A DNA stretch of 64,000 nucleotides from a virus. Below are positions 42,345 through 62,011 of the stretch, in pieces. The stretch spans positions 16,506-80,505 of IMG/VR virus record IMGVR_UViG_3300049995_000120. One strand, written 5' to 3'. The notes under the pieces are model-generated. The model saw nothing but the letters and a program-made list of their open reading frames with translations. It was not told the DNA's origin and searched no databases. The position numbers and the translations under genes were made by a program. The first letter of the stretch is position 1, and every line of letters starts with the position of its first letter.

Positions 42345-42584
42345 AAGGATTAAGAATCTGCCGCGTATGTGGTGAAGAGTTTGAAGGCGCGCGCAACGCC
42401 CGTTATTGTTCTTGGAAATGCAAACAAAGAGCATATAGATTCCGCAAACTAACTGTGGTAAAATAGTTTTGTCTAGGAATGAGCGGAATTTTAATTTGCT
42501 TATATAGAGCCGTTACTTTGTTAATTCCGCTGTTCCTAGACCCAACAGCAAAACAAAGTAGCGGCTTTATATTTTGGAGGCTAT

Positions 42585-43073
42585 ATGCAAATCATATATT
42601 CAATTAGCGGGGATGAGATTTTCGTGGACGACGATGATTATCCACTATTGAATCGCCATAGATGGAGTGTAACTCGTGAAGGATATGTAATAGGACAGAT
42701 TGCAGATCGTTCTATTACGATGCATCTGCTAATAATGGGGAAAAGAAAAGGACATGAGGTTGATCATATTAATGGCGTAGGATGTGATAACAGAAAATGC
42801 AATTTGCGGTTTTGTACTCATTCTGAAAATATGCGAAATAGTATTTCTCAGATATTCTTTTTCTGGAGAAGAACACCAAAAAAGCCTTCACGAGCGCGTT
42901 CATTACCACCTATACATTATGGCCCTCAAAAGATTGTTCCCTTTCGTTGTAAACAATGTGGTCATTTATTTCAAGGAAAACCCAACAGCAGATATTGTTC
43001 TGCTGCTTGCAAACAAAAACATTATCGTTTCCGTAAACGCATACAACACAACATCGTAGACATTTCTCCGTGA
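42585..43073 (+). CDS. HNH endonuclease with C-terminal Zn finger
   Basis: VDDDDY, MH..IM, VDHING...DNRK.NLR..T..EN..N; CKQC...YCS..C. Confidence 0.85.
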   Translation: MQIIYSISGDEIFVDDDDYPLLNRHRWSVTREGYVIGQIADRSITMHLLIMGKRKGHEVDHINGVGCDNRKCNLRFCTHSENMRNSISQIFFFWRRTPKKPSRARSLPPIHYGPQKIVPFRCKQCGHLFQGKPNSRYCSAACKQKHYRFRKRIQHNIVDISP

Positions 43074-59409: not shown

Positions 59410-60089
59410 ATTCATCCAAGAGAATTCACTATACATCCCGCTGACAGATAAGACAGTGCTAATTAATGCCATGATTAATGTTCTTACATTTCTGCCAAAG
59501 AATTTCACACTTATCAAGATGTTTCTGAGAAAATCTGTACCGAATAAACTCGCTTTCTTTCCCCCATCTATTGATCATCTTAATTCTGATTGCGTCCTTG
59601 AGGGGATGTTCACGCAGTGTTCGTAACTCAAGAACGGTATTGGCAACTGCTCTTTTTACTTTTAGATAGGGCAAAACGGTTTGGATAATTCTTGCCGCAC
59701 TTTTATCAGTTGCTTGGAAACAATAAAGACGACGGCGATTAGGCTTCGGATTACTTATAGAGTGATAGTTTCCGCCTAATGTTGACGTAATAAAACTTAT
59801 GGCTTCCTCGTTCACCATCTGAATACATATGCGTTCTTGGTAACAAGGATTTACACGACCATTTCGCATCGTCTTGTCTTTCTTTATGCCCATATAGGCC
59901 TCGCCATCTATCAGTCCGGCAATATAAGCAATATCTGTTTCGTTCATAACCATAACCTCCAGGGTGAGTTATGGGTATTATACCACAAGAAAGGAGGTCA
60001 GGATGATTTATTGGATTGATTTGAATGCTGAATACATAACTTTATCGCGCAAGAGGTTGAATGGAATACAAAGGCAGTTTAACCCTTGA
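59402..60089 (+). pseudogene. relic DNA methyltransferase split by an inverted LAGLIDADG gene
   Basis: MTase-like N-terminus MIEFIQENSLYIPLTDKTV at 59402 and C-terminus FIG/DLNAEYITLSRKRL at 60007-60089. Confidence 0.5.
59459..59947 (-). CDS. LAGLIDADG homing endonuclease (single motif)
   Basis: IAYIAGLIDGEA, LPYL.VK; GGAGG SD 8 nt before the ATG at 59947. Confidence 0.85.
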   Translation of the reverse strand: MNETDIAYIAGLIDGEAYMGIKKDKTMRNGRVNPCYQERICIQMVNEEAISFITSTLGGNYHSISNPKPNRRRLYCFQATDKSAARIIQTVLPYLKVKRAVANTVLELRTLREHPLKDAIRIKMINRWGKESEFIRYRFSQKHLDKCEILWQKCKNINHGIN

Positions 60090-60533: not shown

Positions 60534-60568
60534 CTTTGTGGTAAAATAGTAACACTGTACTTTAACAC

Positions 60569-60864
60569 GGGATAGAAAGGTTTCGACGGCTTGCGGAAAC
60601 TAAGCCGACTGAGCGCAAAAAACAAATGCTAACCCTATACGTTTCGCAGACGTTTTCGGATTTACTCCGCTCTGTCTAGCGGAGATGTTGTTCAACACTC
60701 CGGTCTCAGTTCCGGTCTACGTTCAATAATTGAGTGGTGGAGCCCGGTCAAGTCTATCTTGTTTCCCCCCCCTGGCCCCCTGCACCTACAGGTTAAACTA
60801 GGAATGCTCAGTACAGAGGCAAACTAAGGTAAGTCGGACCCGGGTTCGATTCCCGGCTATTCCA
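60569..60864 (+). ncRNA. ssrA: tmRNA
   Basis: 5' GGGATAG..GGTTTCGAC; 3' GACCCGGGTTCGATTCCCGG-CTATTCC-A; acceptor stem with G3-U wobble; internal ORF starting GCT after AAACAAAT. Confidence 0.88.
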
Positions 60865-60882
60865 CAATCCCAAACCCCAATA

Positions 60883-61064
60883 GGGTCGGTAGCAACGATG
60901 AGCGATAATGGGATAATGGGTAGTGACAGTGCCTCGAAAGTTGAAGGTAACGGCTATCGCAAAAGTTGTCGCCGGTATGAAGATTAGCGACTGGCTTTTA
61001 CGGCTTCTAAGGTGAAACTGTATGACGCGGCAAAGCCGATAAACTCAAAGCCAAGTGCCGACCC
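60883..61064 (+). ncRNA. unidentified structured RNA (182 nt)
   Basis: terminal helix GGGTCGGTA/TGCCGACCC enclosing several hairpins, between tmRNA and tRNA. Confidence 0.5.
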
Positions 61065-61068
61065 GCTT

Positions 61069-61137
61069 TACGGGGCGAAACGGTTTCAGTGGGTTTCATA
61101 AGCCCTACTCACGCAGGTCCGACTCCTGCCCCCGTTA
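61069..61137 (+). tRNA. tRNA-Met(CAT)-like, reduced D-arm
   Basis: acceptor ACGGGG/CCCCGT, anticodon GGGT-TTCATAA-GCCC, T arm GCAGG-TCCGACT-CCTGC. Confidence 0.65.
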
Positions 61138-61157
61138 CTACGTGCAAAAGCGAAGCA

Positions 61158-61311
61158 TATTGGACTTAGCCGGTCAGGCGCTCCGCGTAAAGCGAAAACC
61201 CTTGACGTACCCGATCGTGGTCGGGAATGACGGAGCGAAGCAGTAAGATCCCCTAGACTGCCAGGTGGTTGCAAGACCACCGAACCTTTACTTGTGGTGG
61301 CGAAGTCAATA
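61158..61311 (+). ncRNA. unidentified structured RNA (about 154 nt)
   Basis: closing helix and four internal helices including a GCAA tetraloop. Confidence 0.45.
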
Positions 61312-61335
61312 GTTCCCCACAGAAACCGAGGAACT

Positions 61336-61722
61336 ATGACTTTTAAATCACGAGAAGAAGAGAGTGTTTACAGAAGGAGAAAATATGCTGAAAACCCTGA
61401 GGCTTTTCGATATAAATCTGCCATGAGGGCTGACAGAGCCAGAAAAAGAATGCGAACACTATCTCAGAAAAGACGTTTAATCATTATGGAGATATTGGGT
61501 ACAAAATGTGTACGCTGTGGGTTCTCAGATTCAAGAGCATTACAAATCGATCATATTAATGGACATGGTGGTGCCGAAAGGAAAACATTTTCATCTCCTG
61601 GTGCCTATTATCAGCATATTATTGACATTAATGGAATAGGATATCAAATATTATGTGCAAACTGTAATATTATAAAGAAAATTGAAAATGATGAAACCAA
61701 CAGAAAGTATTTCTTTAAATAA
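61336..61722 (+). CDS. small HNH endonuclease
   Basis: CVRCG.SD.RALQIDHING.G...YQILCANCN. Confidence 0.8.
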   Translation: MTFKSREEESVYRRRKYAENPEAFRYKSAMRADRARKRMRTLSQKRRLIIMEILGTKCVRCGFSDSRALQIDHINGHGGAERKTFSSPGAYYQHIIDINGIGYQILCANCNIIKKIENDETNRKYFFK

Positions 61723-62011
61723 ATCTTTCCCTGCCCCGTTCGCGACTTCCCCCGTGTGGGACCTAATGGCAATGCTAGACGGCGGGGCGGGGAATGTACA
61801 ATATACTGCGGTAATTTACTAATAACTCACGAAAGGAGTATAGAATACATGAAACTCATTACAGGTTTAGGATGGATTGCGGCAATAATCTTTGTGGTCA
61901 TGTTTATTATGTTTGGAGTCAACAATGTTGAGCGGGGTGTGACCTGCGGTATTCTGATTTGCGCCTCCCTGCTTTTCGTCATCGCCACTAAACTTCCTGA
62001 TAAGGTTTGAC

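What the first reader, a model, noticed from the sequence alone, without database searches (positions are those of the whole stretch)
60537..61794. Polycistronic phage RNA cluster: tmRNA - RNA X - tRNA - RNA Y - HNH - hairpin
Seen: one extended -10 (TGTGGTAAAATAGT, identical to 42454-67) precedes four closely packed RNA modules with spacers of 18, 4 and 20 nt. An HNH gene and a 14-bp GC helix (61727-40/61781-94) follow. Known: RNase P and 3' trimming cut at tmRNA/tRNA ends. Inference: the tRNA-like elements punctuate the transcript and release two unknown RNAs with defined ends, a possible undescribed RNA-based module for taking over translation.
Basis: partly seen in the sequence, partly recalled or inferred. 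Interest (0 to 1): 0.7.

Follow-up and report, generated by a model that had tools for sequence, protein, structure and literature searches.

The report
Phage tmRNA, odd initiator-tRNA copy, HNH
An uncultured sediment phage carries a divergent tmRNA gene, a stunted copy of an initiator tRNA and a selfish HNH nuclease gene behind one promoter, but the two "unknown RNAs" proposed between them have no support as genes and look more like spacer and leader sequence.

Summary
Partly confirmed, and mostly ordinary. The tmRNA (60569-60867), the HNH gene (61336-61722), the extended -10 and the 14-bp helix are real.

The "tRNA" (61069-61138) is real but non-canonical. It fails the default ARAGORN and Rfam thresholds, yet it is the only hit in the 80.5-kb genome at 95% of the ARAGORN threshold (0.075 expected per genome). 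It resembles a Desulfobacterota initiator tRNA-fMet with most of its D arm missing.

"RNA X" and "RNA Y" have no support as RNA genes:
- No Rfam family matches, and the genome holds no second copy.
- Their folds are no better than shuffled sequence, although this test also fails the true tmRNA.
- X's closing helix disappears when its flanks are added.
- No homologue turned up in any collection searched; 20 phage records with about 50% terminase identity lack the whole cluster.
- Y's only strong structure is a hairpin that buries the HNH ribosome-binding site, a known control of homing endonucleases.
- Y also holds a copy of a multi-copy palindromic repeat found in Desulfobacterota genomes.

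The identical 14-mer is the phage's general promoter consensus. The layout has a precedent in the T4 tRNA region (tRNAs, RNA C and D, segB).

Expression could not be tested.

The parts
60537..60550 (+). Extended -10 promoter (TGG-TAAAAT; hexamer at 60542-60547) with no good -35. It is a copy of the phage-wide consensus TGTGGTA(A/T)AAT.
   Evidence: Exact 14-mer also at 42454. Related copies at window 50930, 59974(-), -920(-), -818(+) and others.
60569..60867 (+). Divergent one-piece tmRNA. Acceptor GGGAUAG/CUAUUCC with G3-U70 and discriminator A; CCA is not encoded (CAA). The predicted tag is 33 aa and lacks the usual ...ALAA end.
   Evidence: RF00023 55.8 bits (gathering score 47), model positions 1-374. 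ARAGORN also calls it. Desulfobacterota tmRNAs score 184-212 bits with tags such as ADDYNYALAA, and are only about 42% identical to this one.
60868..61068 (+). Non-coding, no recognised family, fold not robust.
   Evidence: No Rfam hit at E<=10. z is -1.4 to -1.7. Closing helix lost when flanks are added. A single-sequence covariance model R1 finds only itself in 22 viral records. In 150 Desulfobacterota genomes it finds one 28-bit match, antisense inside a 402-aa ORF.
61069..61138 (+). Initiator-tRNA-like element with anticodon CAU. It has a U1xU72 mismatch, A73, A11:U24 and GGG/CCC in the anticodon stem. The D arm is cut to a 4-bp stem and 3-nt loop, position 8 is C, the T loop is UCCGACU (C55), and CCA is not encoded.
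   Evidence: ARAGORN calls it only at or below 95% of the threshold, where it is the sole hit in the genome; shuffles give 0.075 per genome. Rfam tRNA-Sec 15.9 bits. The MFE fold is a cloverleaf. Alignment to a Desulfobacterota tRNA-fMet (L225:1453-1529) with the same U1xU72 and A73 shows a 6-nt D-loop gap. Its 17-nt T arm occurs 80 times in IMG/VR, 36 of them inside default-called tRNAs.
61139..61335 (+).
   Evidence: No ORF with a family match and no Rfam hit. Core 61139-61295 has z -0.4.
61210..61231 (+). Single copy of a palindromic multi-copy repeat of Desulfobacterota genomes (CCCGATCGTGGTCGGGAATGAC). The left arm is partly decayed.
   Evidence: Nine BLAST hits from 401 genomes converge on this segment, one of them 22/22 identical. 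Tandem copies occur in L222 and L223. The pattern CCGATN{3,5}GTCGGGAATGAC is in 15 of 401 genomes, up to 24 copies, on both strands, with 0 for the reversed control. It occurs once in the phage.
61302..61343 (+). Hairpin that pairs part of the Shine-Dalgarno sequence (GAGGA, 61328-32) and the AUG (61336-38) of the HNH gene.
   Evidence: dG -15.4 kcal/mol, z -3.4, reached by 2 of 200 shuffles.
61336..61722 (+). Free-standing HNH endonuclease gene (128 aa). Its GC of 0.33-0.40 is well below the flanks.
   Evidence: PHROG 2255/4234/3106 HNH endonuclease, E 1.3e-11. Pfam Endonuclease_7 scores 21.2 bits, below its cut-off of 23.6. GC profile. The only IMG/VR relative (44% identity, L001) has no such leader.
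61727..61794 (+). GC-rich 14-bp helix (3 G-U pairs) closing a loop of about 40 nt. No U tract follows, so it is not a canonical intrinsic terminator.
   Evidence: Fold of 61715-61850: -41 kcal/mol, z -2.3. It is not a host-type repeat: 4 of 401 genomes hit at E<=0.02, against about 8 expected by chance.

Best explanation
A host-type extended -10 promoter at 60537 drives a small accessory RNA operon in an uncultured phage whose terminase relatives sit mostly in Desulfobacterota genomes. The operon encodes a divergent tmRNA and, 200 nt further on, a D-arm-truncated derivative of an initiator tRNA-fMet. Transcription then runs into a free-standing HNH homing-endonuclease cassette.

RNase P would cut at the 5' ends of the two tRNA-shaped elements (inferred). 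The pieces between them are processing by-products and leader sequence, not dedicated RNA genes:
- 'X' is the inter-gene spacer.
- 'Y' is the 5' leader of the HNH gene. It contains a stray copy of a host-type palindromic repeat and ends in a hairpin that hides the ribosome-binding site and AUG.

That hairpin would keep the nuclease poorly translated from the read-through transcript, as shown for mobE and implicated for segB in T4-like phages (inferred by analogy). The low-GC HNH cassette is a recent selfish insertion beside the RNA genes.
For: - tmRNA.
- tRNA-like element: sole ARAGORN hit in the genome at 95% of the threshold, against 0.075 expected. It aligns to a Desulfobacterota tRNA-fMet with the same U1xU72 mismatch and A73.
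- Promoter motif is the phage-wide consensus. No terminator-like site lies between 60868 and 61335 on the + strand.
- X and Y: no Rfam family, no second copy in the genome, unstable or insignificant folds, and no homologue among the records and genomes searched: 20 related phage records, 22 viral records and 150 Desulfobacterota genomes with a covariance model, and the phage collection.
- Y holds a host-type repeat.
- The ribosome-binding-site hairpin has z -3.4.
- HNH family match and GC drop.
- Host phylum: terminase relatives lie in the Desulfosarcina variabilis chromosome and in Desulfogranum, Desulfobacteraceae and Syntrophales assemblies.
- Precedents: PMC3014915 for RNA C and D and for hairpins over homing-endonuclease start sites; PMC2330249 for segB inside the T4 tRNA cluster.
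Against: - Two 200-nt non-coding stretches are long for spacers in a genome that is about 91% coding, and they are more GC-rich than the genome.
- Lack of conservation is weak evidence. The relatives that could be searched lack the whole cluster, and the closer ones could not be fetched.
- Fold z-scores cannot exclude structure, since the true tmRNA scores only -0.5.
- No expression or end-mapping data exist.
- Whether the tRNA-like element is processed or charged is untested.
Confidence: 0.55

Rival explanations
1. X and/or the core of Y are stable small RNAs with their own function, released from the precursor by RNase P and 3' trimming at the tmRNA and tRNA-like elements. This would resemble RNA C and RNA D of the T4 tRNA region.
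For: - The stretch is non-coding and more GC-rich than the genome.
- It lies in the same transcription unit as two tRNA-shaped elements, with no terminator-like site between them.
- Both stretches can be drawn as closed multi-branch folds.
- T4 is a precedent (PMC3014915).
Against: - No family match, no conservation and no repeat copy.
- X's closure depends on the chosen ends.
- The Y core has z -0.4, and part of it is a stray host-type repeat.
- Y's significant structure is the hairpin over the ribosome-binding site.
Confidence: 0.2
2. Decaying cargo. The whole interval 60868-61335, including the tRNA-like element, is non-functional. It would be a pseudogenised initiator tRNA and scraps of captured host intergenic DNA, left next to a tmRNA and invaded by a homing endonuclease.
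For: - The tRNA-like element lacks U8, a normal D loop and U55, and fails default detectors.
- A host-type repeat copy with a decayed left arm is present.
- The cluster is absent from 20 related phage records, two of them 90% or more complete.
- The tmRNA itself is barely above threshold and has an odd tag.
Against: - The tRNA-like element still folds as a cloverleaf by MFE, with an intact 6-bp acceptor, T arm and 7-nt CAU loop.
- Relative to the bacterial tRNA-fMet, pair 2:71 differs on both sides (G-C against A-U), which keeps pairing.
- Its T arm is one used by bona fide viral tRNAs.
Confidence: 0.18
3. The non-coding RNA around the HNH ORF is a group I intron or another ribozyme or guide RNA that carries the nuclease gene in a loop.
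For: HNH ORFs are often intron-borne. GC-rich structured sequence lies on both sides of the ORF.
Against: - No group I, group II, HEARO or other ribozyme family appears at E<=10.
- No significant pairing bridges the ORF: 24 of 200 shuffles do as well.
- No interrupted host gene exists. The tmRNA matches its model end to end, and the tRNA-like element is contiguous.
Confidence: 0.04

Closest known systems
T4 tRNA gene region (eight tRNAs, RNA C and RNA D, segB homing endonuclease)
   Same: A phage cluster of tRNA-type genes that also yields small RNAs of unknown role, with a free-standing homing endonuclease gene inserted among them. Translation of such nucleases is held down by RNA structure at the start site (PMC3014915, PMC2330249).
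   Different: - Here there is a tmRNA plus one tRNA-like element instead of eight tRNAs.
- The nuclease is HNH, not GIY-YIG.
- The intervening RNAs are unverified, whereas T4 RNA C and D are observed transcripts.
Phage-encoded tmRNA genes (Rfam RF00023)
   Same: A tRNA-like domain with G3-U70 and a T arm, scoring above the gathering threshold. tmRNA genes in phages are already reported in the literature (one search lists examples such as PMC9004378).
   Different: - It scores very low (55.8 bits against 184-212 for the bacterial tmRNAs sampled).
- It is short (about 297 nt).
- The predicted tag is 33 aa without an ALAA-type end.
- No SmpB gene was found in the 80.5 kb held.
Bacterial initiator tRNA-fMet (Desulfobacterota type, L225:1453-1529)
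   Same: CAU anticodon, U1xU72 mismatch, A73, G-C-rich anticodon stem, and a near-identical T stem and acceptor 3' strand.
   Different: - The D loop is shortened by 6 nt, leaving a 4-bp stem and 3-nt loop.
- Position 8 is C and position 55 is C.
- The anticodon loop is UUCAUAA, not CUCAUAA.
- CCA is not encoded.
- It fails default tRNA detectors.
Hairpins that sequester the ribosome-binding site of free-standing homing endonucleases (Aeh1 mobE, T4 I-TevI, segB)
   Same: A stable hairpin pairs the Shine-Dalgarno sequence and AUG of the nuclease gene on the read-through transcript (PMC3014915).
   Different: No internal late promoter that would give an unstructured transcript was identified here, and the regulation is untested.
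Repetitive extragenic palindromes (REP-like elements) of bacteria
   Same: A short imperfect palindrome present in many copies on both strands, sometimes in tandem, in some Desulfobacterota genomes.
   Different: It is a single, partly decayed copy inside a phage leader. I did not identify this repeat family by name, and its transposase, if any, was not sought.

Membership tests
tmRNA (RF00023) | Covariance-model score at or above the gathering threshold, over the full model | tested here: met
   55.8 bits against 47, model positions 1-374. ARAGORN also calls a tmRNA.
tmRNA (RF00023) | Alanine identity: G3-U70 in the acceptor stem and discriminator A | tested here: met
   Read from the sequence: GGGAUAG pairs with CUAUUCC, giving G3-U70, followed by A.
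tmRNA (RF00023) | Short tag reading frame ending in a protease-recognition tail (such as ...ALAA) | tested here: inconclusive
   ARAGORN predicts a 33-aa tag ending YVQ. Sampled Desulfobacterota tags are 10 aa ending AVAA or ALAA.
Canonical tRNA | Detected by ARAGORN default settings or by the Rfam tRNA-clan gathering score | tested here: not met
   No tRNA at default settings. The best clan match is 15.9 bits against 47. It is found only at or below 95% of the ARAGORN threshold.
Canonical tRNA | Cloverleaf with 7-bp acceptor, 5-bp T stem with 7-nt loop, and 7-nt anticodon loop with U33 | tested here: met
   ARAGORN drawing and MFE fold. The acceptor has 6 pairs plus the 1:72 mismatch.
Canonical tRNA | D arm with U8, A14, G18-G19 and a loop of 7 nt or more; T loop U54-U55-C56 | tested here: not met
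   C8, a 3-nt D loop (CGG), and T loop UCCGACU.
Bacterial initiator tRNA-fMet | 1:72 mismatch, A73, CAU anticodon, A11:U24 | tested here: met
   U1xU72, A73, CAU and A11:U24 in the ARAGORN fold. The Desulfobacterota tRNA-fMet L225 has the same U1xU72 and A73.
Bacterial initiator tRNA-fMet | Three consecutive G-C pairs at 29-31:39-41, next to the anticodon loop | tested here: inconclusive
   GGG/CCC is present but sits one pair further from the loop, with a U-G pair closing the loop.
HNH endonuclease | Profile match to HNH families | tested here: met
   PHROG 2255 E 1.3e-11, plus PHROG 4234 and 3106. Pfam Endonuclease_7 scores only 21.2 bits, below its 23.6 cut-off.
Homing endonuclease (mobile) | Present or absent between otherwise homologous loci, and cleaves the empty site | not testable with these tools
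   No homologous locus without the gene could be fetched. Support is indirect only: a low-GC island.
Stable RNAs of a phage tRNA operon (T4 RNA C and D type) | Discrete stable transcripts with defined ends | not testable with these tools
   No RNA run was listed for this DNA.
Group I intron | Match to the intron core model; interrupted host gene | tested here: not met
   No hit at E<=10. The tmRNA and the tRNA-like element are uninterrupted.
REP-like palindromic repeat | Short palindrome in many copies on both strands of a genome | tested here: met
   15 of 401 Desulfobacterota genomes, up to 24 copies, on both strands, with 0 for the reversed control, and tandem copies. The phage holds one copy.

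The most novel reading that the evidence does not exclude
The D-arm-less initiator-tRNA mimic and the odd tmRNA are a working pair. The phage would use them to tamper with initiation and ribosome rescue, or to stand in for or decoy an initiator tRNA that a host toxin or defence nuclease attacks. X and/or the Y core would be stable partner RNAs released by the same processing. Together this would be a phage RNA operon of a kind not yet characterised.
Probability: 0.12. Interest if true: 0.7.

Novelty: new member of a known kind. Interest (0 to 1): 0.3.

Why it matters
If the ordinary reading holds, this is one more phage RNA-gene cluster invaded by a homing endonuclease. It is useful mainly for annotation and as a host clue, since the initiator-tRNA likeness, the palindromic repeat and the terminase relatives all point to Desulfobacterota.

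The tRNA-like element deserves some attention in its own right. It is a statistically real initiator-type tRNA with a near-absent D arm, sitting beside a tmRNA. If it is processed and charged, it would be an unusual minimal bacterial-type tRNA. It could also bear on how phages cope with host nucleases that target tRNAs.

The case also shows that single-sequence fold statistics cannot decide such claims, because the true tmRNA here scores z -0.5.

Tried and rejected
Searches for relatives of the region:
- blastn against 50,697 phage records: no match.
- IMG/VR scans with the upstream ORF, its relative P0002, the DnaB gene, the tmRNA 3' end and the tRNA-like anticodon arm: nothing.
- HNH relative L001 (44% identity) has no leader.
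- Metagenome scans: P0002 was not found. The tmRNA 3' end pattern gave only an unrelated AT-rich contig, L002.
- Genome scan with the tmRNA 5' end: none.
The 2.8-kb contig that encodes the 67%-identical neighbour protein P0002 therefore could not be read.

Sequencing runs:
- No RNA holder was listed.
- Contigs from four other sediment runs were identical to the window, so they gave no variation.

Earlier scan notes:
- No look-alike stretch on other DNA.

Weaker leads followed and dropped:
- An nhmmer alignment of the tRNA-like element plus Y to L057 was low quality beyond the T arm and was rejected.
- BLAST hit clusters at 61022-61070 and 61166-61200 in Desulfobacterota genomes lie inside long ORFs in mixed orientation, with no Rfam family, so I judged them chance.
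- The 28-bit hit of the X covariance model in G040 is antisense inside a 402-aa ORF and was rejected.
- The permuted-tmRNA (21.3 bits) and YrlA (15.5 bits) hits rest on the tmRNA's own T arm.
- Word resemblances to RNase P RNA, recalled from memory, were not borne out by any model hit.
- Pairing across the HNH ORF is not significant.
- Joining the Y core to the downstream helix did not improve the fold (z -1.5).
- The GC helix is not a host-type repeat.
- No SmpB or CCA-adding enzyme gene was found in the 80.5 kb held.
Full report
**What the window is.** The window is part of an 80.5-kb IMG/VR virus record (CheckV completeness 72%). Near-identical DNA occurs in several freshwater-sediment metagenomes. 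The genome has no close cultured relative: its DnaB is under 30% identical to any GenBank phage, and blastn of the region finds nothing. Its large terminase (L074:7955-9754, minus strand) has more than 1,300 environmental homologues. In species-representative genomes these sit mainly in Desulfobacterota. Examples are the Desulfosarcina variabilis chromosome and Desulfogranum, Desulfobacteraceae and Syntrophales assemblies, with some in Chloroflexota. Desulfobacterota is therefore the likely host phylum (inference).

**Checking the observation.**
- The 14-mer TGTGGTAAAATAGT is present at 42454 and 60537.
- It is one instance of a motif, TGTGGTA(A/T)AAT, that recurs at five or more sites that I read as intergenic, on both strands. 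One copy lies ahead of the LAGLIDADG gene at 59953 and one ahead of the HNH gene at 42587.
- I read this as the phage's general extended -10 promoter, so the identity has no special meaning.
- The tmRNA at 60569-60867 is confirmed by Rfam (55.8 bits, gathering score 47, full model) and by ARAGORN. Its acceptor carries G3-U70 and discriminator A, read directly from the sequence.
- The HNH gene at 61336-61722 matches HNH PHROGs at E 1.3e-11.
- The downstream helix 61727-40/61781-94 is 14 bp with three G-U pairs and has no U tract after it.

**The "tRNA".** Default ARAGORN and Rfam do not call a tRNA.
- When the ARAGORN threshold is lowered to 95%, a tRNA-Met(CAT) at 61069-61138 appears as the only hit in the whole genome. 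Forty Markov shuffles of the genome give 0.075 hits each.
- A chance hit in this 470-nt stretch, on this strand, next to a tmRNA is therefore very unlikely.
- The MFE fold is a cloverleaf.
- Features present: U1xU72 mismatch, A73, A11:U24, a GGG/CCC anticodon stem and a 7-nt CAU loop.
- Features that depart from a normal tRNA: a D arm of 4 bp with a 3-nt loop, C8, and T loop UCCGACU.
- Its 17-nt T arm occurs 80 times in IMG/VR. Thirty-six of these lie inside tRNAs called at default settings, so this T arm is used by real viral tRNAs.
- A BLAST of the region against 401 Desulfobacterota genomes picked up a bacterial tRNA-fMet (L225) with the same U1xU72 and A73 and a near-identical T stem and acceptor strand. 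The alignment shows a 6-nt gap in the D loop and a two-sided change at pair 2:71.
- I conclude it is a real, host-type initiator-tRNA derivative. Whether it is functional, a mimic or a pseudogene is open.

**X and Y.**
- The interval 60868-61335 has no ORF over 64 aa, and the two longest have no Pfam match.
- It is the largest non-coding gap in the genome and is more GC-rich than average. This is the only positive evidence for RNA genes.
- Against it: no Rfam family at E<=10 even when only 486 nt were searched, and no second copy in the genome.
- Fold z-scores are -1.4 to -1.7 for X and -0.4 for the Y core 61139-61295.
- X's 9-bp closing helix is replaced by other pairings as soon as flanks are included.
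- The z-scores have little power in either direction, because the true tmRNA scores only -0.5.
- Y's apparent significance (z -2.6 to -2.9) comes from the hairpin 61302-61343 (dG -15.4 kcal/mol, z -3.4). This hairpin pairs part of the Shine-Dalgarno sequence and the AUG of the HNH gene. Such hairpins are a documented control of phage homing endonucleases (PMC3014915).
- Inside Y, 61210-61231 (CCCGATCGTGGTCGGGAATGAC) is a copy of a palindromic repeat. Nine BLAST hits converge on it. It occurs in tandem in L222 and L223. The pattern is in 15 of 401 Desulfobacterota genomes with up to 24 copies on both strands, and the reversed control gives none. The phage has one copy, with a decayed left arm.

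**Conservation.**
- Twenty IMG/VR records with terminases about 50% identical, two of them 90% or more complete, have no tmRNA, no similarity to the interval and no homologue of the upstream ORF.
- A single-sequence covariance model of X found only itself in 22 viral records. In 150 Desulfobacterota genomes it found one 28-bit match, antisense inside a long ORF.
- The cluster is therefore an accessory feature of this phage or of its close kin.
- Closer kin exist: P0002 is 67% identical to the upstream ORF, and terminases at 65-76% identity are listed.
- Contigs from other sediment runs were identical to the window, and no RNA run was listed.

**The tmRNA is unusual.** Desulfobacterota tmRNAs score 184-212 bits and have 10-aa tags ending AVAA or ALAA. 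The phage tmRNA is about 42% identical to them in a poor alignment, is about 55 nt shorter, and has a predicted 33-aa tag ending YVQ. No SmpB or CCA-adding enzyme gene lies in the 80.5 kb held.

**Most likely mechanism.**
- Shown: a promoter-like motif, two tRNA-shaped elements on one strand, no terminator-like site between them, an HNH gene of low GC, and a hairpin over its start.
- Inferred:
  - a single precursor is cut by RNase P at 60569 and about 61069;
  - the tmRNA and the tRNA-like element are trimmed and receive CCA from host enzymes;
  - X is released as a by-product;
  - the rest serves as a poorly translated HNH mRNA;
  - the HNH cassette is a selfish insertion next to the RNA genes, as segB is in the T4 tRNA cluster (PMC2330249).
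- I put this reading at 0.55. X and/or Y as real stable RNAs is at 0.2, a fully decayed non-functional interval at 0.18, and an intron-type or ribozyme reading at 0.04.

**Comparison and novelty.**
- The nearest known system is the T4 tRNA region, which holds tRNAs, RNA C and RNA D of unknown role, and a free-standing homing endonuclease (PMC3014915, PMC2330249).
- The present locus is a new member of that kind, with a tmRNA and an initiator-tRNA derivative in place of a tRNA array.
- The one feature that might prove unusual is the D-arm-truncated initiator-like tRNA.

Noticed in passing
window 42454, 50930, 59974(-), 60537; genome 15585(-), 15687(+): The phage uses a recurring extended -10 motif, TGTGGTA(A/T)AAT. 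Three copies precede homing-endonuclease genes or cassettes: the HNH at 42587, the LAGLIDADG at 59953(-), and the tmRNA...HNH unit.
   Followed up: partly
window 60569-60867: The tmRNA only just passes Rfam (55.8 bits, against 184-212 for five Desulfobacterota tmRNAs). It is about 55 nt shorter and has a predicted 33-aa tag without an ALAA-type end. No SmpB gene lies in the 80.5 kb held.
   Followed up: partly
L222:1470-1560, L223:1440-1560 (Desulfobacterota genomes G038, G117): A palindromic repeat family, (A)TTCCCGAT-N3-5-GTCGGGAATGAC, occurs in up to 24 copies per genome and in tandem arrays with a period of about 30 nt. It is in 15 of the 401 genomes sampled. I did not identify it with a named family.
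   Followed up: partly
L062, L030, L033, L047, L066, L068, L073 (proviruses of about 40 kb in IMG/VR): The T arm GCAGGTCCGACTCCTGC occurs two to four times per provirus, in conserved contexts of about 70 nt. Of the 80 occurrences in all the IMG/VR loci fetched, 44 lie outside tRNAs called by ARAGORN. These may be unusual tRNA-like repeats or long-arm tRNAs.
   Followed up: no
L022:6245-7073 (80.6-kb complete phage, IMG/VR): An unrelated AT-rich phage has tRNA-Leu and tRNA-Met abutting with no spacer, both with C at T-loop position 55. Several hundred nt of non-tRNA sequence lie between its tRNA genes.
   Followed up: no
window 59459-59953 (-): A LAGLIDADG-type ORF (Pfam 18.3 bits, below its cut-off) has its own promoter copy and lies just upstream of the cluster on the opposite strand. 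The region is therefore dense in homing-endonuclease genes.
   Followed up: no
window 61163-61167 and 61338-61342: Two identical GACTT words can each pair with AAGTC at 61303-61307. This is too short to evaluate.
   Followed up: partly
L158 (Desulfosarcina variabilis chromosome, 6050013-6052485): A terminase 54% identical to this phage's lies in a complete bacterial chromosome, which suggests a related prophage and a cultivable host lineage.
   Followed up: no
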